A DNA stretch of 64,000 nt from Marsupella aquatica. Taxonomy: Eukaryota; Plantae; Marchantiophyta. The number at the start of each line of letters is the position of its first letter. Positions within the stretch are counted from its first letter, which is position 1. The stretch lies in assembly GCA_973895155.1 (NCBI GenBank), contig OZ316894.1:15058699-15122698 (forward strand), given 5' to 3'. The position numbers were made by a program, and so were the translations under genes. Shown in pieces: positions 34,733 through 64,000 of this stretch. The notes below the pieces were generated by a model. It did no database searches. It was not told where the DNA came from and saw only the letters and a program-made list of their open reading frames with translations.

Positions 34733-34909
34733 GCAACAGCTGGCGATTGGCAAGTATGAGGTTGAGGATGACTACCTGCACAGAGTCACATAACGGGAAT
34801 TGCTGCCTGGAATGATGTTTAGGATAGTTGGATATGCATGAAATTGATTGATACTTTGAATTTAGTGTGCTGATTCTCCCTGTTTGGTTGTGGGTGTTGT
34901 GCAGAAGCT

Positions 34910-44105: not shown

Positions 44106-45674
44106 TTGTCCTCTTCTGAGCAATCTCTTTTGGTTGCTCTTTTCTTTGATTGCATTGTACTTTACTTTTTGTGGCAGCTCCTTTGACTTTCATGGTCCCG
44201 GAGCTTATAATACATTACCATTACCATTACCATAACTTGGGTTAGTGCAGTAGTGTGTACCCCCTCTCGGTTGCGGGGCCATAACTTTCTTTGTATTTGA
44301 CCAAATTGGCTATAATTGACCTTGTTGGAAAGAGGAGCTCAAGCCGCTTCCAATGTTTGCTATCCATGCGGAAAATGGTTGAATGGAGAATTTGGGAGAG
44401 GAGGTGCAAGCTAACAAGAAATTGTGGAGGAGAGCCAAATCCGAAGTACATAGTTTTGAGATAGAAATAAAGTTGCGAGTTAGGGTCTAGTAGTTAGAGA
44501 TCGATAGTGGCGGCTCTATTAGGGCTGGGATGGGGCTCCAGCAGCGTAGCAGCTACCCATTTGGGCTCAGGTTGAGAGTATATAGAGTAGCCCCCTTAGT
44601 AGAAGCTAGCGGGGGAACTTCAGTTGTGTGATCTCACGTAGACTGAGCAACAGGGAGGAGCTCTATGCAAGGAAGGCTGGGCTTGGAAGCTGTGTGTTGG
44701 GGAGAGCTTGGTTGTGCTATTACTCAACGAGTAATGAGCCAAGTTTCACAACAATAGTTGGCCAGATTTGCAAGCTGGATTATGGCATCAACCTATTTAT
44801 TAAAAGTGTATTTTCTTTTGTTCACACATGAGTCTTGAAATATACACTTTCATGGCCCCAAATGTACACTTTTGTGTCTCTAAATGTACACTTTATAGGC
44901 CAAATCACATTAGTATTATATTAATAAATAATACATATTATATTATTTAATAATTCACGAAGAAGTGGAGGATAGGAACTTATAAAAATATTTCATCCCC
45001 ATTTAAGGACCATTGATACCATTGTCTGGGGGGAAATGTGGTCCTTGAGGAAGCACCGGGCCTATGGCTGCTAGTGTCAAGAGAGAACTTAAGTTAAAAT
45101 CATGATTACTATTCTAGACTGGGTAACAGACACCACAATGAATGGTTCTGTGGATGAAAGCACAACATCATAACCCTTTTCTCCATACCTTTGACTATTG
45201 CCTCATTGGCAACTACCTTTGGTCAAGTCACAAAACAAATATCTCCCAACGATAAAGAAACGGGAGATTCATCGGAGGGAGGTTTGTTGAGATCCATCTC
45301 AATACAAGATAAAAATTGTGCAAGCCCAATCCTGCCCGTAAACTACATAAGAGTCTACAAGTGGCTCTATTGAATTTAACACTGCAGTTGCAAATGCTTC
45401 TCCAAAGTAAAAAGTCATATGTTAATGCATTATCTCTTTTTGGAGTACATGAATTTTAATAAGGAAAAGATTAGGGAGAGGAAGAACAGGTACTGGTCTG
45501 GGCATTATTGTACTATCAAATATTCCACCCAACTAATATTCATTCTAATGACAAGATCTATAATCATTCAACAAAAAAGATCATTCATTCAAATAAATAC
45601 TATGCATTGAGTTAACTCTAAGTGTATACATGCACATGTTTATCTTAATAAGTTTATCTTCTTTTGAATGAAAA

Positions 45675-45945
45675 TACTATTTGAAGGTCCAACGCATACA
45701 AATTACCACTGATTGAGCTAAGCTCCAAGCCAGCGTGCATGCGTGGGTCTACTTCATAAGGGTTTCACCCAAAAGGAGCATATGATGTTAAGATATTGTT
45801 GAGCACTTTGCAACTCTTTAGGACTTAATAACCATCTCCTATCAAATGATAATACTTTTTGAAGGTCCAACTCATACAAAATATCTTTGGCCAAGCCAAA
45901 ACTCTAAGCAAGCGTGTATGAGTAGGTCTACTTCATAAGGATTAT
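45675..45945. repeat. Two diverged copies of an ~90-bp motif about 179 bp apart
   Basis: ttgaaggtccaac.catacaaa...aagc.agcgtg.atg.gt.ggtctacttcataagg at ~45680 and ~45859. Confidence 0.7.
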
Positions 45946-46169
45946 ATTCATAGAGGAGGTCATCAAGTCCAATGGATTCTTAAGGCTTCACAACTTAGTT
46001 GATGAAAGATGGGGAGTGAGGGGAGAGAACCCCTCTCCTCTTTATTTATAGTGCTCACACCTCAAGCACACGGATCAAGCATGACACACAGATGGAAGCC
46101 ATGTGTCACACATCCAAGGCAAGTAAGTGTGCTAGTACTATAGTTACGTGAGTGGAGCAACTATAGGCA

Positions 46170-46378
46170 GTACACTGTGGCATGCACACTGTAACATGCA
46201 TATTGTAGATCGTACACTGTAGCATGCACACTGTAGGTCTTGCACTGTAGCAACCACACTGTAGATCATACACTGTAGCATGCATACTGTAGACCGTGTA
46301 CTATAGCATGCACTCTATAGACCGTACACTGTAGCATGCACACTGTAGGTCGTGCACTGTAGCACGCACACTATACAC
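46170..46378. repeat. 14/28-bp minisatellite (CACTGTAG core)
   Basis: Alternating cacactgtagcatg / tacactgtagaccg-type units. Confidence 0.88.
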
Positions 46379-49300
46379 TACATATAACGCGAGAATTCAA
46401 ACTACTATCCTATACTACTAAGCTATACTTACGAGGAACTTACTAAACAAAGAATCTCCACGACACCGTGTGAACAAAATAACATCATTCCAAATAGATT
46501 ATAAAATATTTTTATACAATTATCTGCAAATTTACAATGAATACAAACATATTTCTAGTACTATCCAAGGGGCTTAACACGAGTCAATTAAATATCTAAA
46601 CCAAGTGCTCCATACAATGTGTATTTGAGCATGTAACATGGAGCCTTAAGGGATGAGTCCAAGGCCCGAATTCCTTTTTCAAGATTTTCATGATTTTTCC
46701 AAAAGTGCTTTAAAAAAACATATAAAAATGAAACATGTTTTGTGAACTTTGCTATTATAATTCTTTCAATGAAAATCTTGGGATATTTTCAACATCATTT
46801 TCACAATTACCAAAAACAACAAATCCATACTTAATTACAAACATAAAATTTACGGTCTTTGATCTGAGTTTGTGCAAACTCAAAATCTTAATTAGAATGC
46901 CACTATCCATTGTAGGTGTGCATCTAAGTCCACTAAATCTCTAAATACAATGCAACTCAACTAATCTAAGGCTTCTCTAACCTCCTCTCCACTTCTAGAA
47001 GATCCTTGCTTCAATCCGAGCTAGCTCAATAGTTACATCTTCTGTTGCACCCTCTACTCTGGTGCGCTTCACGTCCTCCCCACTCTCTTGATCCATACCA
47101 ATATTGAAATGTACATCGAGTTTGATTTGGGCAGCCACCCGGCTTCATGAAATCATGAAGCCGGGTTCTCACCTGAAAGAAGCTACCTGATCCTCCTAGC
47201 TCCCTCCAATTAGTTCCCCCAAGCTCGATAGTTCTCTTTGCTTCTGCTCCCAATCCACCCACCTTGGACTCATTTTTGACCCAGACCAGGCCTGGTCAAC
47301 CCTTAATCCTCCCTAGATCAATCTTGATTCCCGATCGGCCCTCCCCCGGTCCCTGATTAGTGAAACCCTTCCCCAATCCTAAACCCTCCCCCCCGATCTT
47401 TTACCGCTCCCCCTCCAATGTTTGATCATCCCCTTGATGCTCGACTGCCCTCCTCCGGTGCTCCATCCCCCTCTGATGGTTGATCGTTCCCCTGACGGTC
47501 GATTGTCCACCCTCCTCCAATCCCTAAATGGCCCCCCTTCCAATCCCCTTCCAATCCCCTTCCAATCCTTATCAATCCCATTCCAATCTCCCTTGCTCCC
47601 TCTCCCATCCTCCACTCGCTCCCCCTTCAATCCTTAGGTCTGCTCGATTGAGATCTAGCTCTCAAGCTCAATTTTTCACAAATTATCCCTGATCCTTTGT
47701 GGCTATCTCCCCTAATTGGAATCTGTCTCATTTAATCAGAGTCTACCACAGCTAATTCAAGCAGCAGTCAATCACAGTAGAAGCTCATTCAATAACCAAA
47801 TCTGAGAAATCAAAGTCCAACACTCAGGTGAAATCCAGCAATCAAAGCATCAACATCAAACCAGGAATTCAAAATTTCAGCTTCAGGATTTTGAAGGCGA
47901 CAGCAGAGATTAGCAGTCGTTCCCAGACCATAAATTAGGCCTGACCTCAATCGGCAGCTGATGACAGCACCTTGATGCGACTTGAGCTTAAGTGAGGGGC
48001 AATAGCCCTCTCCAGGCCGCAGCCTCCTTTGCCATAGCCAATTGGCTACCCTAGCCCTTTGTAGGTCATTGAGCCTGCAACAGAGTCTTTGCCCTTTGTA
48101 TTTTGTCACAACCAGTTTTGGGGTTCATGAATTCATGAAGCTTTTGGTTTCTCAGTTTCCCAGGTGGTAGCCCCTTCATGAATTCATGAAAGAGAATAAG
48201 GTATCTTAGGGAGAGAATCTCCAGAATAGCCAAAAGAAAGACTTCAAAAGTGAAAGAAAAGGGGATAAAGACAAACCACTCAATCTCAAGAAATGCAAAA
48301 AATATGGTGAAATAAAAGCAAAAAGTGCTCCAAATGCCAATATTCCAAAAAGCATATGGAAACAGTAGGTCAACAAGACAAACTCTCCAATCATGAGTCA
48401 TGGAAGTACGTATCTTGGTGGGCAAAAACATATGGGTTTTTAATGCCAATGTTTATCCTCATGAAACGTGGGAATGCAAACCTAAAAATGATTTATTTCT
48501 CCAAGTAAACTGGATTGCGTAGTCCAAACAATATTGTGAGATTAATAATTGAGCAATCTAGTAAAGGGAGGTATGGGGAAGGGAAAAGGCCCAAAGAAGC
48601 CCTAAGTTGCCCAACAAGCCAAAAAGTCAAAGGACTAGGATACCACCTAGTAGCCAAGAAGACTAATTAATAAAGTGTTGTGTCATAAAAAACTTTTGGA
48701 AATATAATTTTTTCAACTTTTTCCTTGACTTGTTCATCTATGTCATGAAAGGATTGGCTTAATTATTGAAAAATGATTTAAGCATTTCTTATTCATTTAA
48801 ATTAGAGAAAGGACCAATTAAGTTCAAATAGGCGTCCTCTATTCATGAAAACATGTTATTTCATTTGTTTCAAGTTAAAGGGTTTTTGCTCTTTTGTGTG
48901 TTTTGTCTACATTAAGTTCTTCTCACTCATTTGAGAGCACTAGCCTCCCCGGGCGTTAAGTTCTATCCCATGTGGTTGAGACTAGTGTTAATTTGGGTGT
49001 CCGACTCAAGGGTCTTCAAGATAGTGGACAGTTGAGAAAGCGGACTCATGAATTCATGAAGACCGATTGTAACAAGTTTCTAAAAACACTAAGTCCTGTC
49101 TCAAAACCAGATTGTTGTGCATTTTGGAAAGGTCAAGCGTTGCAACAAGCACCAAGGGGAGAGAGTGAATATGGTCGTCTGACATCTCTCAAATTCCAGG
49201 AAGGTGTAAGAGCGCTGACACAAGCGGGGACACAAGAAGACCTACTGAGGCTGCAAATAATTCCGGCAAGGAAAGGATCATCACAAGAAGGTCACCCGGG

Positions 49301-49968
49301 CACACTTGCATCATTTGGCTGAGATTGGAAGCCAATCAATATCAAGAAATTAACTTGAAGGGGAAGAATAAGAATTTGGAAGAGGTCCCCAAGAAGAGGT
49401 TGGGGGAGCCCAGTTGGGTCAATATGTTTGTGAAATTCAGATGTTGCCTAACAAATCAAACTCAGGCATGTTGAGAGCCAGGTTGAGAGTAAAAGAGGAG
49501 CCATTGAGTGATCTGATTTGGATCAGAACGGGTACATCTGGAAGCGTAGGTGGTGAATTTGTGGAGATATCATCTTCCATTGAAAAGTCTTCCTCAAAGA
49601 GTGAAGGGGCGCATGTTGGAGAGTCAAAAAGAGATCATATTTTATGAATTTGAAAATTTCCCAAGTCTAATAAATTATGGAGGTAATTTGATCATTTGTT
49701 AAAAATACAAATCATGTTTTGGTAAAAATTGCTAAAATGGCATAGTAAAATTATAGGTAGTAATTTTATCAAAAGTAAGTTGAGATCATTTTGTAATTAG
49801 GAGATGGTGAAAAAAGTGTGTCATTTTAATACTTTCAGTTTGTTTTATAATTTTGTCAAAAAACAGGTAGTATTTTTGGCCACTTTTTTGCCATTTTCTT
49901 TGTTTCTGCAATTTTTTTACGAGAGTGCTTAGAGTTTGGGCTTGTTACTCACCCTTTAAGGCTTCTTG

Positions 49969-50994
49969 TTATGTGCCCCTGTTTCCTTTCCTATCTACCC
50001 TATTGTCACGGTTGCAACGCCCTTTATTTTCAAGGAGTTGAAATTTGGTGGTGTTATTCCTAATGGCTATAATCTCCCGCAAAAAGTGTCTGGGATTTTC
50101 TCTATATGGACCTGAATAGTCCTTTCCTAAAAATGATTTAGCAAGTGAGTTGATAAGTGCATTGTCAAGTTCCTCCTCAGGACGTAAACTACATATACGA
50201 TGCTTTACATTCCAAGGGATCTCATTGTTGTTGAGGTCCAACACACTATGCGTAAAGTGTGACTTCCAAATTGTTGTTGCAGATTTCTTGCTAAGTTGAT
50301 CATAAGTAATCTCATTTTTTGCCTTGTCTCTCTTCATGTGCAAAAGAGACCACTTTGGAGAGTTGAGAAGAAGATAACATCGAATGTCACTTGCATGTGA
50401 AAGTTTCTCAAGACATGGCCAAAGAATTGCTAGAAGAAAATTATCTCCACAATTGGCATGCGTGTAGGGCACTGGAAATAATCTGGTCATGTCTGGGTTG
50501 GCAAATGCCTTAAGGGGGGAGTCATCCACAAGGAGAGTGTTGGTTTCATCATATAGATTTCCAAATGCATTCCATACCACCCAAAAATCCTTTAGTAGCA
50601 CATTTGCCTTTCCGTTTGTATTGTCACGCCTTTGAATGCCTATGTCAAAAGCTTCCACCTGTGTGAATACAAACTGGAGTTTTGACCTCTCCTCATCAGT
50701 GAACATCATGTTCAACATTTTCATTGTTTGCGGTATCCCAACACATGTCCAAATTGCAACGTCAAATCTGTCAAAAACCAACTTTAGAAACTCATGGAGC
50801 CCTGGTCGTTCTATATACATGCGACTAATACCATTTTTTCTATCCCAATGCACTCCACTTGAGGTGACAATATTCCTGGATGTGCCCTTGCTTTGGAATT
50901 CAACAGAATCCCAAAGTATTTTATTAAGGTCCAAAATCAGCAACTTCCGCTTGACGGGACCAGGTCTCGATTTTGCAAGTGCACCAAACACCAT
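49969..50994 (-). CDS. HAD-superfamily FCP1/NIF-like phosphatase-domain protein
   Basis: RKLLILDLNKILW, ERPGLHEFLKLVFDRFDVAIWT, LLKDFWVVW...YDETNTLLVDDSPLKAFANP. Motif I is DLNxxL rather than DxDxT. Confidence 0.85.
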   Translation of the reverse strand: MVFGALAKSRPGPVKRKLLILDLNKILWDSVEFQSKGTSRNIVTSSGVHWDRKNGISRMYIERPGLHEFLKLVFDRFDVAIWTCVGIPQTMKMLNMMFTDEERSKLQFVFTQVEAFDIGIQRRDNTNGKANVLLKDFWVVWNAFGNLYDETNTLLVDDSPLKAFANPDMTRLFPVPYTHANCGDNFLLAILWPCLEKLSHASDIRCYLLLNSPKWSLLHMKRDKAKNEITYDQLSKKSATTIWKSHFTHSVLDLNNNEIPWNVKHRICSLRPEEELDNALINSLAKSFLGKDYSGPYRENPRHFLREIIAIRNNTTKFQLLENKGRCNRDNRVDRKGNRGT

Positions 50995-51215
50995 TCTCAG
51001 AGAAAAGACCAAAAGTGAACTTTGGATTAGGATTGTGTCAGTCCAAAAATACAAGACAATGGCTAACAAAAAAGAAAATTAACCTATACCGTTTTTAGAA
51101 GCCTCACAATGTGTAGACGGATATGGAGACTTTAATTGGTGAGTGCATTCTGTGAGACCGAGAAGTATTTTAGATTGGTATGAATAAATAGAAAGTCAAA
51201 AGCTGAATTTCATTC

Positions 51216-54200
51216 CTAAATAAGAGATCTGTATTCATCAATAATCATGTCAGCACCAAGCTCCTGTTGGATTTCAAAACTGACATCTAAAGTACTTTGT
51301 TCTACCCAATAAGGTGAAGTCCGAACATGAGTAAACAACCCCAATTCTCTCCTCTTATACTCCTCCTTATTGAGAATTGAAGGAGCAGCATCCAATGATA
51401 TTTCTTGGCCTCTATTTGGCCCACTTTTCCATACGTAACATTGTAAGTCGCGTTCCAATGACCTTCATCCAGTTGATCCAACTCTATTCCCTTTCTTTTT
51501 TGAGAGCGGAAGGACAATAGGACTCCCCGTGTGTGAACACACGAACACCAATTTGTCATCTGAAGTTGAAAAGAGTGTGTCAGGACAAGTTGAAGCACCT
51601 GCCTGGTTGTCAGCAGCCGTTGATGCATTTTCTCCTGGATTGATGGGAATGTCAGGCAATCCGCCAGTCTCCCCCCAAGTCAATTCTTGAGTTTCAGCTT
51701 TATTTGAATCTCCAAGCCTCGTTGCACCTTCATTGATCAGATTGGTTGAAGAAAGATGATCAAACGTATCAACCCTTGCTCCTTCCATTTGCTCCATCTG
51801 TCCTCCCGGCGTTGTTGGATTGGGATCGTCCTTGTCCAAGTTATCATCAACTTGAACTTCATTGGGCCCCGAAGGGATGCCATCTAAACCAGATGAACGG
51901 TTTGGTGCAAGACCAATATCATCATCTACATCGTAAGGCTCACCTTGACCAACACGGTCATCTAAATTCTTGACATATGCCTCCTCTGATGCCTCTATGG
52001 CTTCAGCCACTTTGTCAGCAACATCTTTAGACTCAGAACCGGTTGATTCAACAGCGACAACTACAGCCGCAATAGTGGTAGCCCATTGTCAAGAATTTTC
52101 AGCAAGTGATTCACAATGGGCTTTAAGTGAGGGAACTCTCTTGCAAAGGTAGGAAGCAAAAGCTTCCACAAAATGCCTCTCAGACTAAGAGTCACAATAA
52201 ACAAAGTATTCCCTATCGCAAAAAAATGATGTCTTCATGACTTGGCCACCGGAGAAAAAATCTAGAACCAAATCTCCCAATTCTAACAAGGATTCAATAA
52301 TCCTTTGGATCATCCATGTGGGTTTGGCATGAGGATTAACCCACCCTTCGCGACTGCCAATTGTCTCAAATCGAGGGGCCATATTCATAATCTTGACGAC
52401 CTCTTCCGGGTCCAAAACCACTTTTAGGTTGTCGTTTTGTGTCCCCTCATCTGATTCCTTAGCCTTCCCCTTTCCCTTGTTGATCTTGCATACTTTGTAA
52501 TCAACATCCTTTGAAGTATACAAGAATTTTGGCTTTGGATAGTTGGGCTTGAAAACTTCATTCCAATTGACGTCTTCATCTTGAGAAATCCCCGCAAAGA
52601 TAACTTCTTCAATCCCCCCACCCCAACATGAGTCATGAGGGTGCGGTTGATCATCTTGGGAATAACTCCCATACTCAATGTGAATGGTCAAAGCTTTCTC
52701 TTGTCCCAATTTACAAAGGGCACCATGGACATTCAGTGCAAGTTGTCCAGGATGAATTGTTATCGTCACAACAATTGTGGGATTTTGTGGAAGCTCCACA
52801 ATGTATTCAAAGAGAACAAGAATCTCTGCTTCAATCCACTGTTTTGGCGGAAGCCGGCTAAAATCAACACTAGCAAGAGCGCAGGTCGGAGGAGCTTCTC
52901 GCAATGACTCTGGATCAATGGTCTTCATGAGATTGTTGCTAAAAAATGTAACCCATGGTAGGGTCCGAGAACGTGATCCTCTGCCAAATTTCTGGCAGAA
53001 TACATCATCTAGGCAGAATGCCAATGCCGTTGGCAAGATTGCGCTCTCCCGCGTATGGTTTGGCTTTAAAAGGTTGGCAAGATAGACCTCGCCAGCGGCT
53101 CTTCGACACCTGCTGAACTCTAAATCAATTGCTAGCGTAGGAAGAACCTCAAATACTTTCCCCCAATTAGTATTTGTCGGGAAATTCACCGCATCCTTGG
53201 TGCAATAGTAGTCTTCAATAAGGGACTTTAGTTTCCGCACGATCTTCACATCTTTGGCCAACTCCTCTATAGATGGCATGTTCTGATTTATTAGAGGCAT
53301 CTTTCTTTAGCAATACCTTTCCTGACTTCACCCGCGTTAGTATTCTTGTGATGTCTTGTTGTGAGATCAACTCACCATCAAAACAACAAAACATGGCAAT
53401 AGTAATTGCTTTTTCAGACTTCTCATTTCCTTCTACCCAGCTCCATCAAGAAGTTTCCCATCCAACCACAACTGGCATACCAAACTCCATGAATAAAAAA
53501 GAGCATTGTCCGCAAACAATAACCAGTAAACATTTCGACAATCTTTCCTTCCCATGGTCATTCTTGCAAGAGCCAACCAATCCTACAATTGCAAAGGAAA
53601 GTCTGTTAGTTCTCCATAACTCAATTGTTTGGAAGCACTCAGGTGCGGACTGAGACCATCCCAATCCAACACAGAACTAGACAGTATCAGTGGAAATATT
53701 CTATTGAATGTGCATGATTTAGTTTGGACTGGGACCATCCCAGTCCAAAACAAAACTAGACGATATCAGTGGAAATATTCTATTGAATGTGCATGATTTA
53801 GTTTGGATTGGGACCATCCCAGTCCAAAACAAAACTAGACGGTATCAGTGGAAAAATAATCTATTGAATGTGCATGAATCCATTTGGACTGGGACCATCC
53901 CAGTCCAACACAAAACTAGACGATATCAGTGGAAAAATTCTACTAAATGTGCATGTATCCATTTGGACTTGGACCATCTCAATCCAAACCAAACTTGAAG
54001 CTTTGTGGTCAAAGACTACCATCTCAATTGTAACCACATATGGAGAGTCTACGGTATTGTACCCATCAAGCAGTAACACTTCATACCTGAATTTTTGATT
54101 GTCTTGTGCGTTTGTTTTGTTGTCCCCATGTTTTGGCCGGCTAGGTCTTCCACATTCCACAAATTGTCGCCTAGCATGAACGACTGTATCTTTGAAGCAT

Positions 54201-55723
54201 GACTGAAACACCATTGTGCTATTGATAGCATTAGATCGCATTGAATGCTCAACTAATATTGACGATGGTGTTCAATGAGATAATATTCTTGACTTTTGAA
54301 ATTCCAGCTTTTTTGCCAATGCTGTTAGCTTGGCATCCTTGTTTGCCCATTCTCGAATCCATCTGGCTGCTCTGGCCGAATGTTGACCGCTAATGGCAAG
54401 GAACCTTGCCCTTTTTCACGGCTGCTACAAAGTCCCTCCTATCTGATTCTGTGTTGTCATACTGCATTAGGTTTCTATGTTTTGTAGTGTAAGGAATCAA
54501 GTCTACTATGTGTGATTCATGCCCCGGATTTCTTATCATGGAATTGGCCACCTCCTTTACATGGTTTGCATTCAACATTTTGTAACAGAGTCTTGCCGAT
54601 GCAGGAAAATACTCTCTACGGGAATAGAAAATATAGAATTGATCCCAAACGTATAATATTGCTCCATTTGTTGCAGTACCTCATTACCTTCTAAGACCTT
54701 CTTCTCCTCAGGAGCGTCCAACTGCTTGTCCACATCTTGTGAATGCATTGTCAGGTTTTTTGTAGTGTCATCCATGATGGCACTGTCAATTTTTTGTTTC
54801 TTCTTCTGTCTTGGCCTCTTTTCACTTGCACTTGGCTTCTCAACCGGACGTTTCTTCTCAACTTGCTTCTCAACTCGGCTTCTCGTACTCGGCTTCTCAA
54901 CTGGCTTCTCAACTCGACTTCTCAAACTCTGCTTCTCAACCGGCTTCTCAACTGGAAGTTTCTTCTCAACCGGAGGTTTCCTTTGGCTTTGTTTTCGTTT
55001 TCCCATTGCTCTTTGAGAGGTCGCTACTGTAGTTCCCACGGTCTCTGTTGTAGGTTCTGGAGCTTTCTCTGGCGCTTTCTCGGATACAGGGTTTGTATTC
55101 ACCGCTGAAAGCTTTCTTGCCTTGGACAAAGATTCTATCCACTACTTTGCTTTGACTAAATCAAACTTGGGAGCAAATGCAACATCCTTATCAATTAAAA
55201 CACCAGGCTCCTCCGACTCCAACGATAACAATCCAGCTTTCTCAAGTAAATTGCTTAACGTCCAGGTAGTTGGAAAAGAGAAATTGCCTTGGTGCTTCAT
55301 CATGTTGAGTTTCAAATATTGAAACCCATACATAATGTCAACTGGAAGCATACCAGTTACCCCGTCGACCAACTTCTTTGTGTCATAGATCTTTGGAAAA
55401 AATCCCATTGACAAAACGCTCAATTCCCCACTTGCGTGCCATTTGACATTGAATTCAAAGGAGTATGTCTTTGACAAAAGGTTAACTTTAACCCAACAGG
55501 ACCTATCGTGCATCTCTAGAATGACCGAATTCATCCCTCTCCCCCCAATGCCAACAGAGACCACAGGTCCACAAACAAAAGTCAGGCTATCATTTGCTCT
55601 GCACTTTAAGGTCAAAACAGGTTCAATTGTGCTTGATGGCACTTCATTATTAAGCGGGGTTCTTGAGAACTCAAGCCCCCATCGGAAGCCTAGGGATCTC
55701 TCATCTAGTAAGAATCCGTCCAA
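51216..55723 (-). pseudogene. Decayed multidomain gene: OB-fold-like, Lys-rich linker, ParB/Srx-like domain, DNA amino-(N4/N6)-methyltransferase-like domain, acidic tail
   Basis: ORFs 55142-55723 and 54572-55129 share a frame across one stop. ORFs 52185-53300, 51465-52010 and 51216-51458 share a frame across three stops. Motifs: FVCGPVVSV...ILEMHDRSCWVKVNL; LNANHVKEVANSM...FLAISGQHSARAA (~54370-54400); NPHAKPTWMIQRIIESLLELGDLVLDFFSGG...DREYFVY. Confidence 0.65.
53647..53995. repeat. ~79-bp tandem repeat (about 4.5 copies), each with dyad TTGGACTGGG-accat-CCCAGTCCAA, probably intronic
   Basis: Dyads at ~53647 (partial), 53724, 53803, 53884 and 53963. Confidence 0.9.
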
Positions 55724-55879
55724 GCAGTCGGTCGGTGCAATCGTGGTTTTGAAACCAACAAGATCGAGCCTGCATCATAAACATCATCCATGTTAGACTT
55801 AAAACTTGTTGGATTAGGATGGTCCTAGTCCAACTTGAGATGGTTTTAGACTTGCTCCTACAATCGGGATTCAATCTCC

Positions 55880-56310
55880 TGGATAGATTAGGATCCTCCA
55901 AGTCCAACTTTGGATTTGGATGGTCCGAGTCCAACTTTGGATTGGGATCATCCAAGTCCAACTTTGGATTGGGATGGTCCAAGTCCAACTTTGGATTGGG
56001 ATCATCCAAGTCCAACTTTGGATTGGGATGGTCTGAGTCCAACTTTGGATTGGGATCATCCGAGTCCATCTTTGGGTTGGGATCATTCGAGTCCAACTTT
56101 GGATTGGGATGGTCCGAGTCCAACTTTGGATTGGGATCATCCAAGTCCAACTTTGGATTGGGATGGTCTGAGTCCAACTTTGGATTGGGATCATCCGAGT
56201 CCATCTTTGGATTGGGATCATTCGAGTCCAACTTTGGATTGGGATGGTCCGAGTCCAACTTTGGATTGGGATCATCTGAGTCCAACTTTGGACTCGAATG
56301 GTCCCAGTCC
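55880..56310. repeat. 27-bp tandem array (ttggattgggat(ggt/cat)ccgagtccaact), open as DSDDPNPKL repeats on the minus strand
   Basis: About 15 highly similar units. Confidence 0.95.
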
Positions 56311-56554
56311 TCTAAGACTTAGGGAGGATAGGTGATGGATACTTACTAGGAATTTGTGATTGAAATTGTCTAGAGTCTTCGAGTGCCAGTTCTACACTGT
56401 CACTTATAGAGGAGAGGTAAAACTCCTCCGTTGCTTCCACGGTGGACAGCACAAGGACGCAATTTGCTTCCATCTTGCTGACCCGTGGCATCTTAGCAGG
56501 CATCTGATCTAGGTCAATGAAAAATAATGGAGGTGGAGGCGGAAGGCGGAGGCA

Positions 56555-56960
56555 GAAAGCGAGCAGAGAGTGGAGAGCAAGAGCGAGAGCAAGAGAGCGG
56601 AGAGTGAGAGCAGAGAGCAAGAGCGAGAGCAAGAGAGCGGAGAGCAAGAGCAAGAGAGCGGAGAGCGAGAGCAAGAGAGCGGAGAGCAAGAGCAAGAGAG
56701 CGGAGAGCGAGAGCAAGAGAGCGGAGAGCGAGAGCAAGAGAGCGGAGAGCAAGAGCAAGAGAACGGAGAGCAAGAGAGCGGATGGCGAGAGGAGAGCAAG
56801 AGAGCGAGGAGCAAAGCAAGAGGAGAGCGAGAGGAGGAGGAGAGCAAGAGCAAGAGAGCGGAGAGTGAGAGAGCAAACGGCGAGAGAAGAGCGAGAGAGC
56901 AAGGAGCAGAGAAAGAGGAGGAGGAGAGCGAGAGTGAGGAGCGGAAAGTGAGAGAATGAG
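56555..56960. repeat. GA-rich low-complexity repeat (gagcaagagagcggagagc), a CT-rich leader on the minus strand
   Basis: Purine-rich ~21-bp units. Confidence 0.9.
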
Positions 56961-57825
56961 AATGAGGTCCTGGTTGGACCTCTTCATCCCTTTACCCCCT
57001 CCTGCCTCACCCCGGCCTACGTACGATCGGTTGCCTCTGTACGGCCATCCTGCGTACGGCCTGCTCCTGCGCACAACCTTCCTGCCTTTCTGCATGCGGC
57101 CTGCTCCTGCATATGGCCCATTTCCCTCACCCTAAATATGGGCCTCCTTCCTTGATGTCCTGCCCAACAACCTTGCATGGTAGTCCCGGCGCAATTAGGC
57201 TCATGAAGATAAGGTGTGTCTGCAAGCTAAGGTGAAGGGGTACTCGACCCTTATCTTCATGCGATTTCTGGTTGAGCCGACTCAAGCGAAGGGTATAATG
57301 CGGGAGACGCCCACTTTGGAGCTCATTCTTGTTCTAGTTTCCCAAATCTAAGCTCCATGTAATCCGGAGTTTCTCTTAAAGTTTTATGTATTGAGCCACT
57401 TACCTTCAATGGGTCAGCTTAGCCAGCTTCTTGACTTTTGGAGTCCTCTCAGTTTATCTTTTACAGACATGTGTGGTTTAGGGTTCAGTAGGTTTTTTAC
57501 TCCCGAGATTTAGTAGCATATAGCTTGGATTTCAAGGTTCTAGGAAAGTTTTTACCAATCCACAAACAACAATGTATACCCCTTGGATGTGATATTCATC
57601 TTCTACCAGATCTTAATACTAAGGTGAGTATAAGGTTAATGCATTCAAATATAAGGTTCCATTATTTCATGAGACTGTATGTAGACATTAGGGTCTGCCT
57701 TAAGACCACGCAAACTTTAGGCTACACCATATAGGGAGATCCGTAAAATATGGAGTCTTCCTAAATTTGGATTTGTCTTAGCTTAAGATGTTTGAAGTTT
57801 ATCTCCCATGCATTACATGGGTTGG

Positions 57826-58672
57826 TCTAGGATGGTCCTAGTCCAAGTTTGGATTTGGATGGTCCGAGTCCAACTTTGCATTAGGATCATCCGAGTCCAA
57901 CTTTGCATTAGGATCATCTGAGTCCAACTTTGCATTGGGATCATCCGAGTCCAACTTTGCATTGGGATCACCCGAGTCCAATTTTGGATTGAGATCATCC
58001 GAGTCCAAGTTTGGACTTGGATGGTCCAAGTCCTAGTTTGGATTGGGATGGTCCGAGTCCAACTTTCCATTAGGATGGTCTGAGTCCAACTTTGGATTGG
58101 GATGGTCCGAGTCCTAGTTTGGACTTGGATGGTCCAAGTCCGAGTTTGGATTGGGATGGTCCGAGTCCAACTTTGGATTGGGATGGTCCGAGTCCAAGTT
58201 TGGACTTGGATGGTCCAAGTCCTAGTTTGGATTGGGATGGTCCAAGTCCTAGTTTGGATTGGGATGGTCCGAGTCCAAGTTTGGATTGGGTTGGCCCAAG
58301 TCCTAGTTTGGATTGGGATGGTCCGAGTCCTAGTTTGGATTGGGTTGGCCCAAGTCCTAGTTTAGACTTGGATGGTCCAATTCCAAGTTTGGATTGGGAT
58401 GGTACTAATCCAACTTTGGACTGGGATGGTCCCAGTCCAAATCTAGATTCGGAGGATCGTAGTCCAAATCCAGACTCAGAGGATTGCAGTCCAAATCCGG
58501 ACTCGGATGGTCCCAGTCCAAATCCAAAATCAGAGGATTGTAGTCCAAATCCAAACTTGGATGGTCCCGGTCCAAATCCGGACTCAGATGGTCCCAGTCC
58601 AAATCCAAAATTGGAGGATCGTAGTCCAAATCCAGACTTGGATGGTCCCGGTCCAAATCCAAACTTGGTTGG
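57826..58672. repeat. Second 27-bp tandem array of the same family (about 30 units, with sub-variants)
   Basis: ttggattgggatggtccgagtccaa units, drifting to agtccaaatccggactcggatgg variants. Confidence 0.93.
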
Positions 58673-58699
58673 TCTAAGTAAAAATTTAGATTCAACATT

Positions 58700-59023
58700 T
58701 GTGTGGTGCGTCCCATGGCTCCCTAACCCCAAGAAACCCCCCAGCTCAAGCCGATTCCCGCAGGTTTCGTGCTTGGCGAGGCCGTTTCCGCGGCTTAGCG
58801 GCATGGGACGCTGCTAACCTTCTACTACTACTATTAACATTTTACACACATATACTGGACAGATCCTTCATCGGGTCATGAGATACGTAGCCGGCCTAAT
58901 ATAGGCCTTCCCTTGTCTTCCCTTGTCTTCCCCTCCGTCTTGTTAGGTATGTTTGGATTCCGCCGCCGGAATGATCCCCAATAGGCTTGGTTAAGCCGCT
59001 AAGACCTCTCTCAGCTCGACACA
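58700..59023 (-). repeat. Putative 3' LTR (324 bp)
   Basis: On the plus strand it starts tgtgtgg and ends cgacaca. It is adjacent to the PPT and abruptly ends the 27-bp array region. Confidence 0.55.
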
Positions 59024-59622
59024 TCCAACTCTCACTCCCCTGCTTACTTTCCTTCCTTCTGTTGATGTGGGCACTCTTCACACAAGTTAATGCGACACAC
59101 AAATAGCAAATTGACTCATTCTGACTGAGTCATACCATGCACTTGCCATACAAACAGTACATCTCATACACAAGTTCTGCGAACTAAGCCGTGAGGCCAA
59201 CTCTATTCAGCTCTTAGGCATGAGGAAACATGAATATACACAAGGGTCACTGTATGACTAACCGAGAGCTTCTCGTACTACTTGATCCCAGCCCGGCTGG
59301 TGCAAACTAAAAACTTGCTAAAGAAGAGGCCCTGAGCTCCCCGCTGCCCAGGTACTTATCCTGGTAGTGGATCCGCCATTCTTTGCATCGTAAGCCTAAT
59401 CTACTTAACAGTAATCTACTTGCCCGAATCTACCTATGTACAGCAAGGCAGGAGCACAAGTGTTGCTCCTACCAGTGGGACCGCAATCCCACTAAGCTAA
59501 GTGTCAGGGCCGCTCCTGGTTCTGATCCTAATCCTAAACGTGGAGATCCGTGCCCGCCCTGCCCACTCACGCCTCCTCCCTCCACGTCCGCCCTCCCTAA
59601 AAGGAACGGCGCCCTTGCACCG

Positions 59623-62600
59623 TCACGACACCGGTGGTGGATCCTCAATGGACGCCCCCAATACTTCCTCCTCAGCCACTGCCGTTGGCCCGCCTACTGA
59701 CAGATTACCTGCCCTTGACCGAGTCAACTCTCCATCGGCCTGACTGGGTCCACCTTCGGCTTCGGCCTCGACACCGGCCTCGGTAATACCCACGGCTTCG
59801 GCTTCAGCCACTCCCACGGCTTCGGCCTCCCCTTCCCCTAGGGTAGTTGGATCCTTAGCCGTGACCCTGTCTGGGGTCGGTGCTGGGTCTACCTCCTTGA
59901 TCACCACGGCCTGTGAAGTCGTATTACTCCTTGACCCTGAAGGTTTCCGCTTCTTCTTCGTTGGTGGCTCGGCAGCTGGTCCCTTCCCCTTCCCACTTAC
60001 CTCCGGCACTGGTGCAGGTGGCGCGGCTTGTCCTTCGGCAATTACCACCCCTGGTAACTGGTTTGTCCCAACAGGAGATGGACCTGCTGCAGCTAAGCAT
60101 TTAAATACTGCGGCTTGTTTCTTCAGCCGCTCTGTTTGGTTGTCGGCCCGCCGCTGTAGGTTCTCCATCTTCCTCGTGATTTCCTCCAACTCCTCTTGGG
60201 TTTCATCCAGGTCCTTACGTGCCCCCTCCAGCTCGTTTTTGGCCTCCTCCTGCTCCCTGTGGGCTTCCTCCAATTCCTTCTTCAAGGTAGCCCTCTCCTC
60301 CTGGGTTGCTCTTAGCTCCTTGTCGAGCTCTGCAATGATGACAGACTCCATCTGGTTCATCTTGGCGTAAGTCTGTTCGAGCATCTCGTCCTTCTCCCTT
60401 AGGTCGGCCTTGAAGCTGGCCGTCAGGGACGCAAGCTCCTGCTGCAGTGCCATAATCCCTTGATAGGATTTCCCTAACTCGACCTCCTTCTGCTCAAGGG
60501 CTCCGCGGATTTTCTCGAGCTCCCCTTTCAACGCCCATTCCTTTCTTTGGGTCTCCGCCATGGCCCGGCTGTTGGCTGTTATGTGGGCCTCCTCTGTATT
60601 CTTTAGCTCTTGCTTCCACTTTTCCCTTTCTTTGATCGTGTCGGCCAACTCTTCCTGCGTCTGAGTCAGTTTATCCTTGATATTCTGATTATCAGCCTGC
60701 GCGGCGTCCAACTGCCCCTGCATGATGTTCAGCTCATGTCGTTTAATCCGCAGTTCATCTTGGGCTTTCTTGGCCGCCCTTAGATCTTCAATCTCGGCTT
60801 CCATCCTCCTAAGCCGCCGAATGACCTCGTCCTTCTTGCTTCTCTCTAAAGCCACCGCTTCTTCTAATTGGTGCTTCTCCAACTGCTCCCTATGGAAAAA
60901 GGGTCCTACCTCCAACTCCTCTCCAAAGATGCCGAGCGCAAGTTCCCCACACATCTCACCATACTCCATGGCTCTATTCTTAGCGTAGGTGGAGTAAGTA
61001 GAAGTGATCGGCATCGCCCATCGTGGCCTCTGCTCCCAAGCCGTCCTGCGGATCTCTTCAATCGTGGCTAGAGGTTTGCTTCCTTTTTCGGCTAGCCGCC
61101 TGATGTCCTCCGGCCAATCTCCTCCTGGTAAATCCTTTTCCTTAGCCAGGGCGGCCTCTTCCTCTTGCTTGATTCGCTCCTGAAATTCCTGCACCGTCTG
61201 TTTTATGCCGTCGAAGCTCGGGGGAGCAACATCTGGTGGGGGAGACTCAGGGCTACTCTGCTGGTTGGGGTCCCCTCGCACTACCCTTGGAAGTGTGGGG
61301 ACAAACCGGCCACAGGTCCTTACTCCTGGAACGTAATGGTCCGACCCATAGCCGGAATTATCATGGCTGCAGTCCTCCACTGCCTCCTCTACCTCTTGGA
61401 TTTCCGGCTTCTCCCTCTCCTCTTCCTCGGTAGGAGCTTCAGGCAATTCTGCCTCAGATTCGGAGCTTGAGGTTCCCACGTACATTCGAACACCTGGCTT
61501 GGATTCCGGCCTGATTCTCTCCTTGTCTCCAGCAAAGGGGTTTTCTCTTGTGAGCCGGTGTAGGCCTACCTCTGTAGTAGTGTCCTGCATTGTTGCCGTT
61601 GCCGTTGTTGTTGTTGCCGATGCCGATTTCTTTTCTTTCTCCAGTAGTTTCAGCAGACTCTGCATGCCTGGTTGCTGCATCGGCAAGTCTTCCTTCCTGG
61701 GCCTAAACACCTGCTCGATCGTAGGACTAACAGGTGGTTGAGGCTTCTCAGCCAACGGCCTCAGCGTTGGAGCTTCCTCGGGTGCCCTTACCTGCAGGGG
61801 AAGTACCGGGGCAAAAGTCTGACCTCTGGCATACCGGCACAACAGTGGCATGTGATAGCCAAGCCGCGACACGCTCCCCATGCCGATTACCTGCTGCTCC
61901 TCCTTTAAGATCTTCTTCAATTGGTTGAGGAGGTACCCGTTGTAGTCCCGGCTTGGGTCTGGCCTTTCTGCCAGATAGACCTGTGCTTTGCCGATCTCTG
62001 CCCTCGGCAAGTTACAATGCATGGTCACCCGCAAGAAGTCGATCATCTCTCCTATGTGCGGGTTGGTGCAGGTGTTCCGGAAGAAGCCATTCTTCGTTGA
62101 TGGCCCGGGGAACGACCGGAACTCCTTGTCAGGCAAGGTCTTCCTGGTATCAACTTTGGTCTTATTGCCCATCGGCAAGCCAAACACTTCGGCAATCACC
62201 TTGGGAGTAAGATAGAAATCCTTCCCATATATCCTCGTGCAATTGGTCTCGGGTTCCCATGACCCCACGAATTCTAATAGGTCTGACTCCGGTACCTCCG
62301 GCTTCAGCCATGGTAATCTTACAAAGGCCTCCAAGCCGGATCCGGCCATGAAGCCTTGGTACTTCTTGGTCTGCATGGCCGTAAAGCATGCATCCTCCTC
62401 CCGTGCAAAATGTAGTTGCACCTCCACCGGTAGGGTTGCCGCCCAGCCCTTCTAGGTGTCATCCCTGGTTGGAATGGCCTTGATGGGATCGACCTCCTCC
62501 TCTTCGGCTTCTCCCTGCCTCCTGCTCTGCTGCTCGGCTGGCTTCTTTGGTGCCGCCGACCTCGTTCTTTTTGCCGGGGTGGCTTCATCGTTGACGGCTC

Positions 62601-62967
62601 CCTTCCTCTTCATCTCTGCTGCCGTGGAGGTCTCTCCTAGCACCGTTGCCCGGGTCCACCTTTCCGTGCTACCCTTTAATTCCCAGTGTATGTCGTTGCA
62701 GTTCTTGATGGCCTCTCGGATGCCGACGACGCTGTCTTTGCAAAACAGAAGATCGTCGAGTTGATTGGAAGTAGGCGTCCACAAGAACTCGTCCTTGATG
62801 AGTTCGCCTCCTAAGAAAGCCGTCTTCTGCAGCTCCCACAATCGAGCGAGCTCCTGCCGTTCTCGAGCTGCCCTTTCTGACTCCTCGTCCTCGTAAGTCT
62901 TGATGTACTCAGTTGCCCGTTCGAACAGGCATCCCCAGAAATGTGCCGCTTGATTGACGTTGCTCAT
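59623..62967 (-). CDS. Gypsy accessory protein (globular domain plus long coiled coil), about 1,110 codons with one in-frame TAG at 62452-62454
   Basis: ORFs 62452-62967 and 59623-62427 are in the same frame. Extended E/K/Q heptads and a KKKRK NLS-like motif. Confidence 0.75.
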
Positions 62968-63327
62968 ACCCTCCTTAGGTTGATCGTCGGTATCTACTCT
63001 CTCCCGAGTGCTTGCCTAAGCAGCTGACAGTAGTTGGCCTCCCGTAGTCGTCTGCCTAGTTCATGCTCGCAAATGAGCCACCATCTCCTGCAAGCGCTCC
63101 TTACCCCTCTCCTCTGCCGGTCCTTCTTCCCGTTGATCCTTCCTAGCCGCCGACGCTTAACGCGCCCTAACCCTAATCGGGTTTTCACCCTCAGCCTTAC
63201 CTCCGGCCTCTGCCTGGGTTCCATGGTTGCCCCTAATTGTTTATATTTTCCTTGTTTTGTCACTATACTAAGGTGTTCCTAGGGTGCCTTCCTGCTTTAC
63301 CCACTTAACCGGCCGAGTGATTCCTGT

Positions 63328-64000
63328 CTAGGCATCACATAGCTCCCCACTTAATTGTGAAGCGTCCTCGCGAACAACTTCATCTTCGTCCATATAGTAT
63401 TTCTTGAGGCGGTCATAATGGATGCGAACTGGATATACTTCTCCCGTAATGTTGGCCAATTGCACGGAGCCATTGGGGAACATCATGGTTACTCTAAAGG
63501 GTCCTAACCAGCGAGTGTAAAGCTTTCCTGGAAACCTACTATACCTACTGTCATAAAGTAGCACAAGATCACCGGTATGAATACTAACTACTTTTAACCT
63601 TTTATCATACTGCTGCTTCATGATATTCTGTCTATATTCTACTCTCTCGGCTGAAATCATTCTCGCTTCCTCTAAAGCTTCTAACCTATATTCTCGCTCC
63701 TTTAGGCTCTCCTCCGCTGAGGCTCTTTCCTCAATTGTAACTTGAAATGTCGGTATCTCAAGTTGCATGGGTACCAGGGCTTCTTGTCCAAAGGTTAAGA
63801 AGAAGGGTGTATGACCGGTAGTGGATTTATAGGCCAGATTGTAAGCAAAAACAACAGCAAACAATTTATCATCCCAATCGAGTTTGTTCTGAGCTACTGT
63901 TTTGTTCAATATCTTTCCTATGATTCCGTTTGCTCGTTCTGTCAACCCGTTTGCCTTTGGATGGTAGGGAGTAGTAGGCCTATGTTTAACTAAATACTGC
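63328..64000 (-). CDS. Gypsy integrase core end and GPY/F region (partial; no chromodomain)
   Basis: YHPKANGLTERANG...WDDKLFAVVFAYN...TGHTPFFLTFGQEA...GDLVLLYD...KLYTRWLGPF...RLKKYY. Confidence 0.93.
   Translation of the reverse strand, partial: QYLVKHRPTTPYHPKANGLTERANGIIGKILNKTVAQNKLDWDDKLFAVVFAYNLAYKSTTGHTPFFLTFGQEALVPMQLEIPTFQVTIEERASAEESLKEREYRLEALEEARMISAERVEYRQNIMKQQYDKRLKVVSIHTGDLVLLYDSRYSRFPGKLYTRWLGPFRVTMMFPNGSVQLANITGEVYPVRIHYDRLKKYYMDEDEVVREDASQLSGELCDA

What the first reader, a model, noticed from the sequence alone, without database searches (positions are those of the whole stretch)
53647..58672. One dyad motif (TTGGA-N15-TCCAA) amplified in three arrays around and inside the ParB-like gene: parS-like sites?
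Seen: the 27-bp arrays (55880-56310 and 57826-58672) and the 79-bp array (53647-53995) share one core. In the 79-bp unit the core is inverted and, in two copies, is a perfect 10-bp-arm palindrome TTGGACTGGG-accat-CCCAGTCCAA. The same motif was therefore amplified with two different periods. Established: ParB proteins load on palindromic parS repeats near their gene. Inference: these may be cis sites for the adjacent ParB/MTase-like protein, giving self-recognition or marking of the element.
Basis: partly seen in the sequence, partly recalled or inferred. Interest (0 to 1): 0.72.

Follow-up and report, generated by a model that had tools for sequence, protein, structure and literature searches.

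The report
Transposon self-recognition sites beside ParB-methylase gene
A decayed copy of a multi-copy plant DNA element repeats one 25-letter palindrome more than forty times in and around its own ParB-fold/methylase-like gene and nowhere else in the window, and the palindrome is likely the docking site by which the element's protein would recognise its own copies, an idea proposed for algal transposons but still untested.

Summary
Observation confirmed and extended. One 25-bp dyad (11-bp arms, half-site TTGGAYTNGGA) forms the two 27-bp arrays and the inverted 79-bp array. It also occurs alone three times: 17 bp before the ParB-like gene, 28 bp before the NIF gene, and in-frame in the coding linker. 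All 43 window matches lie in this 7.5-kb cassette; shuffles give none. The 79-bp array fills a spliceosomal intron (54085-53583), confirmed by a liverwort homologue. The gene is a decayed copy of a multi-copy family whose named relatives are liverwort proteins. A homologue folds as a ParB/Srx N-terminal domain but has GQHS in place of the CTP-binding arginines. The beta-class methylase-like domain lacks DPPY. No ParA or transposase was found, and the element's ends are hidden. So these are not parS partition sites. They more likely work like VANC/VANDAL target repeats: self-recognition sites for the element's own accessory protein (about 50%; binding untested). ParB(+MTase) transposon genes were already reported in red and brown algae, with adjacent inverted-repeat arrays in the red alga. 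New here: a land-plant family and a defined, testable motif. New variant of a known kind; interest 0.57.

The parts
57822..58683 (+). 27-bp array B, about 32 units of the 25-bp dyad plus 2 bp; the last 9 units have decayed left arms and an 81-bp higher period; upstream of the gene, 5' of the presumed promoter
56573..56961 (-). CT-rich 21-bp repeat, presumed 5' leader of the ParB-like gene (inferred from composition only)
55883..56312 (+). 27-bp array A, 16 units, upstream of the start codon; probably in a 5' leader intron (donor-like GTAAGT at 56347 on the minus strand; inferred)
55809..55833 (+). solitary dyad, 17 bp upstream of the probable ATG (55792)
   Evidence: 38.2 bits on a profile built without it; spanned by gene-linked contigs in runs X3 and X1; distance
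54086..55792 (-). coding exon 1 (about 570 codons, broken by 2 stops and at least 3 frameshifts): unknown N-terminal domain, Lys-rich linker with KPVE repeats, ParB/Srx-fold domain (about 54690-54130) with F-x-A-I-S-G-Q-H-S motif at about 54400
53583..54085 (-). spliceosomal intron (GTATGA donor; CTAAC branch point; TGTAG acceptor)
   Evidence: homologue P0030 residue 153 maps to 54086 and residue 154 to 53582; diverged contigs break off at 54090 and 53589; motifs
53645..53993 (-). 79-bp array, 5 dyad cores in inverted orientation, two perfect palindromes (53724, 53884), inside the intron
   Evidence: tandem joint seen in contigs of all 4 runs
51216..53582 (-). coding exon 2 (broken by stops and 2 frameshifts): helical region, beta-class amino-MTase-like domain (DFSR where DPPY is expected, FxGxG-like DFFSGG), acidic linker, conserved C-terminal domain
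51815..51839 (+). solitary dyad in frame inside the acidic linker (reads LDKDDPNP on the minus strand)
   Evidence: 33.7 bits; frame
51022..51046 (+). solitary dyad, 28 bp upstream of the first ATG (50994) of the NIF ORF
   Evidence: 25.7 bits; other copies read a base closer to the consensus at 51037 in all 4 runs; distance
49969..50994 (-). NIF/FCP1-like HAD phosphatase ORF, open, second gene of the cassette
   Evidence: PF03031 E 4.7e-14
46635..49970 (.). younger 3.34-kb insertion in the 3' end of the NIF ORF (4-bp duplication ATGT, imperfect terminal inverted repeat of about 17 bp); not part of the cassette
   Evidence: joint 46630 to 49971 in runs X1, X3, X6; flanks
58700..64000 (-). Gypsy-type LTR retrotransposon inserted next to array B; it hides the rest of the element
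   Evidence: integrase-like ORF, rve_3 E 0.009; LTR limits (about 59034-58700) read by eye

Best explanation
The three arrays and three solitary copies are one 25-bp palindrome that lies only in and around the ParB-fold/methylase-like gene of a multi-copy plant element, likely a DNA transposon, and it likely serves as the binding site through which that gene's protein would recognise copies of its own element. Shown: the motif, its confinement to the cassette within the window, the intron around the 79-bp array, the multi-copy family, the ParB/Srx fold (in a homologue) and the MTase-like fusion. Inferred, in order: (1) a homodimer reads two TTGGAYTNGGA half-sites, position 8 being free in both; (2) single sites just before each start codon act like operators; (3) slippage or unequal exchange amplifies the site with whatever flank it sits in (27 or 79 bp) in introns and upstream DNA, which raises occupancy, as shown for VANC targets in VANDAL transposons; (4) the bound protein keeps the element expressed or mobile by shielding or re-marking it against host silencing, rather than by ParA-driven partition. 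The MTase-like domain is probably not an ordinary methylase. This copy's gene is dead, so its sites could only be served in trans.
For: Specificity: 43 of 43 matches in 51022-58521, 0 in shuffles, although the rest of the window holds CACTA-, LINE-, Copia- and Gypsy-type elements. The same 25 bp recur in five unrelated flanks (27-bp unit, 79-bp unit, three solitary sites); the solitary sites score 38.2, 33.7 and 25.7 bits, the next best window site 6.6, the best site in 60 simulated windows 20.0. The 79-bp spacer is unrelated to the 27-mer. Of 64 half-sites from 32 distinct units, position 8 takes all four bases (25/15/13/11), position 6 is C or T, and the other nine positions keep one base in 56-63. 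Linkage in other copies: contigs of runs X1, X5 and X6 run from exon 1 into the last 79-bp dyad, one X5 contig runs from exon 2 into the first unit, and X3 and X1 contigs join the gene start to the 55809 dyad (4 runs, 4 studies, 3 coded organisms). One diverged X6 contig with an otherwise unlike intron start keeps 13 of 15 bases of the dyad 11 bp after the donor (chance about 1e-3 over the 48 loose ends shown). Protein: AlphaFold model of homologue P0007, pLDDT 89.8; Foldseek ranks 1-18 are all PadC, Noc, ParB, KorB or sulfiredoxin; VIA-align PadC Z 7.6, rmsd 3.5, 99 aligned, KorB Z 7.5, rmsd 2.9, 93 aligned. Fusion in one chain in Riccia P0065. Precedent: VANC targets accumulate as tandem repeats in introns and upstream regions (PMC5735166); inverted-repeat arrays lie beside ParB-like PAG3 in red-algal Plavaka elements.
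Against: No binding data of any kind. Genome-wide confinement is untested: no genome is held, and short contigs show that arrays occur at the gene, not that they are absent elsewhere. The domain that would read DNA (an HTH in ParB) was not identified; only the N-terminal fold was modelled, on a homologue 43% identical to the window. No Foldseek hit reached E 0.001 and no Z reached 8; Pfam finds no ParB family in the window pieces or in 29 homologues. In the 79-bp array the core is not better kept than the spacer (0.80-1.00 against 0.80-0.93), and no arm pair covaries (smallest p 0.11 of 11 pairs). The mirror symmetry of variability is not significant (r 0.5, p 0.09), units are not independent, and CpG decay explains part of position 18. 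No transposase or element end was found, so 'transposon' rests on copy number, decay and analogy. Motif-protein covariation across families could not be tested: no related locus with DNA was retrieved.
Confidence: 0.5

Rival explanations
1. The dyad is a functional cis site of the element, but it is bound by another protein: the unseen transposase or a TnpA-like regulator, or a host transcription factor.
For: All evidence for confinement and conservation is silent on which protein binds. Array B may be subterminal, and the rest of the element is hidden by the Gypsy insertion. Transposases themselves activate cognate copies (abstract of 10.64898/2026.08.24.746577).
Against: Most sites are internal, in an intron and before the start codons of the ParB-like and NIF genes, not at an end. 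In red algae the arrays sit beside the ParB-like gene.
Confidence: 0.2
2. The arrays are neutral minisatellites of the element: a chance palindrome, prone to slippage and template switching, was copied around inside the element and has no function.
For: No covariation, and no extra conservation of the core over the spacer in the 79-bp array. Symmetry test p 0.09. The perfect unit forms a stable DNA hairpin (-11.3 kcal/mol).
Against: Exactly the same 25 bp, with none of their flanks, recur in five settings, including coding sequence and the positions before two start codons. A diverged intron keeps the motif. The common 27-bp units fold weakly (-4 to -5 kcal/mol).
Confidence: 0.17
3. The motif is a widespread satellite or tiny mobile unit that landed here repeatedly and is unlinked to the gene.
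For: Cannot be excluded without the genome.
Against: No match in about 56 kb of other repeats in the window. The same gene-array junctions occur in contigs of other samples and organisms. No duplications or ends mark the arrays as insertions (by eye).
Confidence: 0.08
4. A true parS-like centromere: a CTP-driven ParB clamp loads on the dyads to segregate or package an extrachromosomal or viral form of the element.
For: ParB/Srx fold. Palindromes within direct repeats resemble F-plasmid sopC (abstract of PMC3177203).
Against: The GERRxRA arginines are replaced by GQHS across 60 homologues. No ParA among the ORFs scanned. The gene has a spliceosomal intron. No relative in viral contigs or phage records (these searches are weak for distant relatives).
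Confidence: 0.05

Closest known systems
Plavaka (EnSpm/CACTA) accessory cassette PAG2/PAG3 of the red alga Bostrychia (bioRxiv 10.1101/2025.02.11.637652; section 8 read whole)
   Same: Transposon-borne ParB-like gene with tandem arrays of inverted repeats beside it, a PF01555 methylase in the same cassette, and the same untested self-binding hypothesis.
   Different: There ParB is fused to a 2OG oxygenase and the methylase to SET, in separate genes. Here ParB-fold and MTase-like domains are one gene, the partner is a NIF phosphatase, named relatives are liverwort proteins, and the motif also occurs alone and in an intron. Their repeat sequences (supplement) were not seen.
ParB-like + N4C/N6A methyltransferase gene (1104 aa) of Sola1-1_Ec32 in Ectocarpus (PMC12477816; passages)
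   Same: Same two-domain fusion, carried as an accessory gene of a giant DNA transposon and proposed to bind and modify its own element.
   Different: No target motif is named in the passages read. Sequence relationship to this family was not tested. Here the catalytic motif looks altered and no transposase is in view.
VANC/VANDAL anti-silencing system of Arabidopsis (PMC5735166; passages and section 9)
   Same: Best functional model: a short motif amplified by tandem repeats in the accessory gene's intron and in upstream regions; peptide repeats in the protein's variable region.
   Different: VANC is unrelated (DUF1985/DUF287), its motifs are 8-9 bp and not palindromic, and binding and demethylation are demonstrated there and not here.
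Bacterial ParB/parS, SopB/sopC and the anti-silencer VirB/virS (PMC10786196 and PMC10770331 passages, PMC3177203 abstract)
   Same: ParB/Srx N-terminal fold; palindromes embedded in direct repeats; VirB shows that this fold can be used for anti-silencing.
   Different: No arginine motif, no ParA found, a 25-bp site with 11-bp arms instead of 16 bp, HTH not identified, eukaryotic spliced gene.
Chlorophyte-type Dam fused to a ParB-type HTH (Iyer et al., PMC4738411; passages)
   Same: Eukaryotic ParB-plus-methylase fusion of prokaryotic origin.
   Different: That enzyme is a group-2 MTase with a ParB-type HTH, in chlorophytes and chytrids. This one is beta-class (closest solved structure M.RsrI, E 0.007) with the ParB N-terminal fold.

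Membership tests
ParABS partition system (parS/ParB) | ParB/Srx N-terminal fold | tested here: met
   Model of homologue P0007 (pLDDT 89.8): Foldseek ranks 1-18 ParB/Noc/KorB/PadC/Srx, best E 5.3e-3; VIA-align Z 7.6 PadC, 7.5 KorB. Moderate scores, consistent ranking.
ParABS partition system (parS/ParB) | Arginine-rich motif GERRxRA (PMC10786196) | tested here: not met
   The equivalent position reads SGQHS: G 57, Q 55, H 60, S 56 of 60 aligned sequences.
ParABS partition system (parS/ParB) | Central HTH that reads the site | not tested
ParABS partition system (parS/ParB) | ParA ATPase partner | tested here: inconclusive
   None among the ORFs scanned, but part of the element lies outside the window.
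ParABS partition system (parS/ParB) | 16-bp palindromic site | tested here: not met
   The shared unit is 25 bp, 11-bp arms and a 3-bp centre.
ParABS partition system (parS/ParB) | Specific protein binding and CTP-dependent loading | not testable with these tools
   Needs biochemistry.
beta-class N6A/N4C DNA methyltransferase (PF01555) | Profile match and SAM-binding motif I after the target-recognition region | tested here: inconclusive
   PF01555 E 1.1e-4, 22.6 bits, below the 26.7 cut-off; M.RsrI E 0.007; DFFSGG kept in P0001, P0003, P0065.
beta-class N6A/N4C DNA methyltransferase (PF01555) | Catalytic motif IV (D/N/S)PP(Y/F/W) | tested here: not met
   0 of 7 proteins checked hold it; 4 of the 7 hold DF(S/G/A)R after a hydrophobic strand. 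That this is the motif IV position is inferred from order and recalled motif layout, not from a structure.
Transposon-borne ParB-like accessory genes (Plavaka PAG3, Sola1-1_Ec32 type) | ParB-like domain with a DNA-modifying-type domain in the same gene or cassette | tested here: met
Transposon-borne ParB-like accessory genes (Plavaka PAG3, Sola1-1_Ec32 type) | Tandem arrays of inverted repeats next to the ParB-like gene | tested here: met
Transposon-borne ParB-like accessory genes (Plavaka PAG3, Sola1-1_Ec32 type) | Carried by a DNA transposon with transposase, terminal repeats and target duplication | tested here: inconclusive
   Multi-copy, decaying family, but no transposase or ends in view; the CACTA at 22368-38907 closes before the cassette.
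Transposon-borne ParB-like accessory genes (Plavaka PAG3, Sola1-1_Ec32 type) | Sequence homology to the algal proteins | not tested
   The algal sequences were not fetched.
VANC/VANDAL anti-silencing | VANC domains (DUF1985, DUF287) | tested here: not met
   No such Pfam family in the cassette proteins or homologues.
VANC/VANDAL anti-silencing | Target motif amplified as tandem repeats in introns and upstream non-coding DNA of the element | tested here: met
VANC/VANDAL anti-silencing | [quoted passage not shown] | not testable with these tools
   Needs transgenics and methylomes.

The most novel reading that the evidence does not exclude
Liverwort-type genomes harbour a transposon family with a complete prokaryote-style self-recognition module: a ParB-fold dimer that has lost the CTP arginines loads on 25-bp operators and arrays, spreads along the element, and uses a catalytically altered methylase fold to shield it from host silencing or to write a non-standard mark. 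It would be the land-plant member of a eukaryote-wide class of ParB-fold transposon accessories that may include the fungal Starship cargo DUF3723, with a programmable 22-base recognition site.
Probability: 0.2. Interest if true: 0.85.

Novelty: new variant of a known kind. Interest (0 to 1): 0.57.

Why it matters
VANC/VANDAL is, by the Bostrychia paper's statement, the only transposon system known to bind and modify its own sequence. ParB-type accessory genes in red and brown algal transposons are suspected to be a second class, but no target site is named in the passages I read. This locus supplies a precise candidate site (25 bp, with natural variants, perfect copies and operator-like single copies) and a protein family with 79 database relatives in a tractable plant lineage. 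That makes the open question directly testable by EMSA or DAP-seq. If true, it shows a bacterial partition fold reused for an epigenetic arms race in land plants, and gives a long, specific DNA-targeting module.

Tried and rejected
Whole-genome linkage: no genome held. Dyad scans of metagenome contigs and prokaryote genomes: 0 matches. Related-locus scans with the MTase alignment (viral; metagenome), with P0007 (viral; phage records) and with the NIF ORF (viral): no relatives; these are weak for distant homologues. One scan with alignment A4 could not be run for lack of conserved columns. A search for full-length (1219-3480 aa) relatives found none (weak evidence). Expression: no RNA holder listed. 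Contig depth over the first array units was higher than over the gene in all four runs, but the tool states that it is no copy number, so it was not used. First AlphaFold model from 5 rows had pLDDT 40 and blank fold searches; replaced by the 60-row model. Sequence-profile searches of PDB and Pfam do not see ParB. 79-bp unit as a degenerate trimer of the 27-mer: rejected. Selection for a hairpin: no covariation. Arrays as coding repeats: long open frames exist only because the unit lacks stops in several frames, and the 79-bp array is intronic. Rfam: 0 matches in 44000-60000. Cassette as cargo of the CACTA at 22368-38907: its terminal repeats close before the cassette. Cassette as the 3' region of the Gypsy element: a purine tract and LTR-like ends at about 59034-58700 argue for a separate insertion (by eye; not proven). 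Homodimer prediction was not run. Five look-ups of earlier scan findings gave nothing on this family.


Full report
Setting. The window looks like a repeat-rich land-plant genome: a CACTA-type element with 16/16 terminal repeats at 22368-38907, LINE- and Copia-like ORFs (names from recalled motifs) and a Gypsy-type integrase at the right end. No whole genome is held. Of 24 homologous proteins looked up by name, 8 carry an organism name and all 8 are liverworts: 2 Calypogeia fissa, 6 Riccia sorocarpa.

Observation. The core is a 25-bp dyad with 11-bp arms and a 3-bp centre; it is perfect at 53724, 53884 and 58416, and most 27-bp units pair at 7-10 of 11 positions. The 79-bp cores are inverted; 53723-53749 is the exact reverse complement of 58415-58441. 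The pattern TTGGAYTNGGA-NNN-TCCNARTCCAA with up to 2 mismatches has 43 matches, all in 51022-58521; 100 shuffles gave none. The 54-bp spacer of the 79-bp unit is unrelated to the 27-mer (p 0.39 and 0.61), so one 25-mer was amplified with two different flanks.

Solitary copies. A profile built from 29 distinct array units, without the solitary sites, scores 55809 at 38.2 bits, 51815 at 33.7 and 51022 at 25.7. The next site outside the arrays scores 6.6, and the best site in 60 simulated windows 20.0. The copy at 55809 ends 17 bp before the probable start codon of the ParB-like gene, the one at 51022 ends 28 bp before the first ATG of the NIF ORF, and the one at 51815 is in frame in the acidic linker. 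Among 64 half-sites from 32 distinct units, position 8 takes all four bases, position 6 is C or T, and the other nine positions keep one base in 56-63 cases. Against reading this as selection: the mirror correlation of variability is not significant (r 0.5, p 0.09), no arm pair covaries (smallest p 0.11 of 11), and within the 79-bp array the core is not better kept than the spacer.

The gene. On the minus strand one broken gene runs from about 55792 to 51216. A Calypogeia gene model (P0030) maps residue 153 to 54086 and residue 154 to 53582, which fixes an intron at 54085-53583 with donor, branch point and acceptor motifs; the 79-bp array lies wholly inside it. A second Calypogeia protein ends at the same exon border. 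A search with the homologue P0007 found 79 relatives at E 0.001 or better among 1.84 billion representatives. Sixty sequences (58 of those hits, P0006 and P0007) were aligned; shorter and weaker hits were left out. The AlphaFold model from this alignment has pLDDT 89.8. Foldseek ranks 1-18 are PadC, Noc, ParB, KorB and sulfiredoxin, best E 5.3e-3, none at 0.001. VIA-align gives PadC Z 7.6 (rmsd 3.5, 99 aligned) and KorB Z 7.5 (rmsd 2.9, 93 aligned); the 7 chains at Z 5 or more are all ParB/Srx-fold proteins by my recall of SerK, SbnI and Atu1540. So 'ParB-like' holds for the N-terminal fold, although Pfam does not see it. The arginine motif GERRxRA (PMC10786196) is replaced by SGQHS, with H in 60 of 60 rows. 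The downstream domain matches PF01555 below its cut-off (E 1.1e-4) and M.RsrI (E 0.007). None of 7 proteins checked has a (D/N/S)PP(Y/F/W) motif; 4 have DF(S/G/A)R where it would be expected (the position is inferred). Riccia P0065 has both domains in one chain. An open NIF phosphatase ORF follows (E 4.7e-14).

A multi-copy family. Six public runs hold part of the stretch, none on record as RNA. Four were laid (X1, X3, X5, X6; 4 studies, 3 coded organisms): 538, 136, 30 and 95 contigs on 53930-55940 and 2281, 274, 124 and 139 on 46400-53720, at a spread of identities. Four of the window's stop codons and five frameshift positions are read otherwise in contigs of 2 to 4 runs, so this copy is decayed and other copies are open at those places; the stop at 52187 was not among the rows shown. 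A joint from 46630 to 49971 in three runs shows a younger 3.34-kb insertion in the end of the NIF ORF. Arrays are part of the family: contigs of X1, X5 and X6 run from exon 1 into the last 79-bp dyad, an X5 contig (53509-53710) runs from exon 2 into the first unit, the tandem joint of the 79-bp unit is seen in all four runs, and X3 and X1 contigs join the gene start to the 55809 dyad. Diverged contigs break off at 54090 and 53589, the intron borders. One of them (X6) keeps 13 of 15 bases of the dyad 11 bp after the donor in an otherwise unlike intron (chance about 1e-3 over the 48 loose ends shown; 533 more were not shown). Contigs show presence at the gene, not absence elsewhere, so genome-wide confinement stays open.

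Element class. No transposase or terminal repeat was found for the cassette. The right side is cut by the Gypsy insertion at about 58700, and the left side runs into nested repeats. 'DNA transposon' is an inference from copy number, decay and the algal precedents. A viral origin has no support: the gene is spliced, and four searches of viral and phage collections were blank, which is weak evidence.

Mechanism. The most likely reading (0.5) is self-recognition. The element's ParB-fold protein would bind the dyad as a dimer; single sites before both start codons would act as operators; tandem amplification in the intron and upstream DNA would raise occupancy. This layout matches what was shown for VANC targets in VANDAL elements, and the bacterial anti-silencer VirB shows that a ParB fold can serve this purpose. 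Without the arginine motif and without a ParA, partition is unlikely (0.05). Without a standard catalytic motif, ordinary methylation of the site is doubtful. Rivals: another binder such as the transposase (0.2), neutral minisatellites (0.17), an unlinked satellite (0.08).

What is known. Petroll et al. (bioRxiv 10.1101/2025.02.11.637652; section 8 whole and passages) describe inverted-repeat arrays beside a ParB-like gene in red-algal Plavaka elements and propose self-binding. The Ectocarpus paper (PMC12477816; passages) describes a ParB-like plus methyltransferase gene in a Sola1 element and cites Iyer et al. 2011 (not seen) for green algae. Also seen: PMC4738411 passages, PMC5735166 passages and section 9, PMC10770331, PMC10786196 and PMC8367383 passages, PMC8885841 passages, two Starship preprints, passages, and the abstracts of PMC3177203 and 10.64898/2026.08.24.746577. 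No description of such a gene or motif in liverworts or other land plants appeared in the listings (20 of 73 listed); subscription papers are not covered. The Bostrychia supplement, which may show its repeat sequences, was not seen (bioRxiv supplements are closed).

A lead. The ESM Atlas places the ParB-fold part of P0007 next to unnamed basidiomycete proteins (0.96) and DUF3723 clusters (0.95, 0.94). DUF3723 is conserved Starship cargo of unknown function; neither text mentions ParB. This was not followed up.

Verdict. Not parS in the strict sense; likely an element-specific recognition site. New variant of a known but untested kind; interest 0.57.

Noticed in passing
window 46635-49970: A 3.34-kb insertion with a 4-bp duplication (ATGT), imperfect terminal inverted repeats of about 17 bp and no long ORF sits in the 3' end of the NIF ORF; near-identical long contigs in runs X1 and X3 suggest a young non-autonomous DNA element.
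   Followed up: partly
protein P0007, residues 35-227: ESM Atlas neighbours are DUF3723 clusters (Starship cargo) and unnamed basidiomycete proteins; DUF3723 may hold a ParB/Srx fold.
   Followed up: partly
window 22368-38907: CACTA-type element with 16/16 terminal repeats, a transposase-like ORF set (31005-34732) and captured-looking ORFs (Cys-rich PHD-like 27853-28548, BRCT-like 29132-29995; labels recalled, not scanned).
   Followed up: no
window 15379-16221: Intronless, open 14-3-3-like ORF among transposons, possibly a retrocopy (label recalled).
   Followed up: no
window 54854-54980: Short tandem repeats encode KPVE-type peptide repeats in the Lys-rich linker before the ParB-fold domain, like the variable repeats of VANC proteins.
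   Followed up: no
window 46172-46375 and 39604-40056: A 14/28-bp array rich in short palindromes and a 181-bp array; neither holds the dyad.
   Followed up: no
window 55805-55910: Contigs of runs X1 and X6 show other spacings between the gene start and the first array unit, and X1 contigs loop back to 55808-55809, which suggests that in other copies this solitary dyad is itself amplified with a period of about 71-74 bp (tables 5 and 5c).
   Followed up: no
window 17141-18276 and 42795-43922: Two 98% identical LINE pieces in opposite orientation.
   Followed up: no
window 59623-63015: The Gypsy-type element carries long extra ORFs (942 and 187 aa) between integrase and the presumed 3' LTR, with no clear Pfam family.
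   Followed up: no
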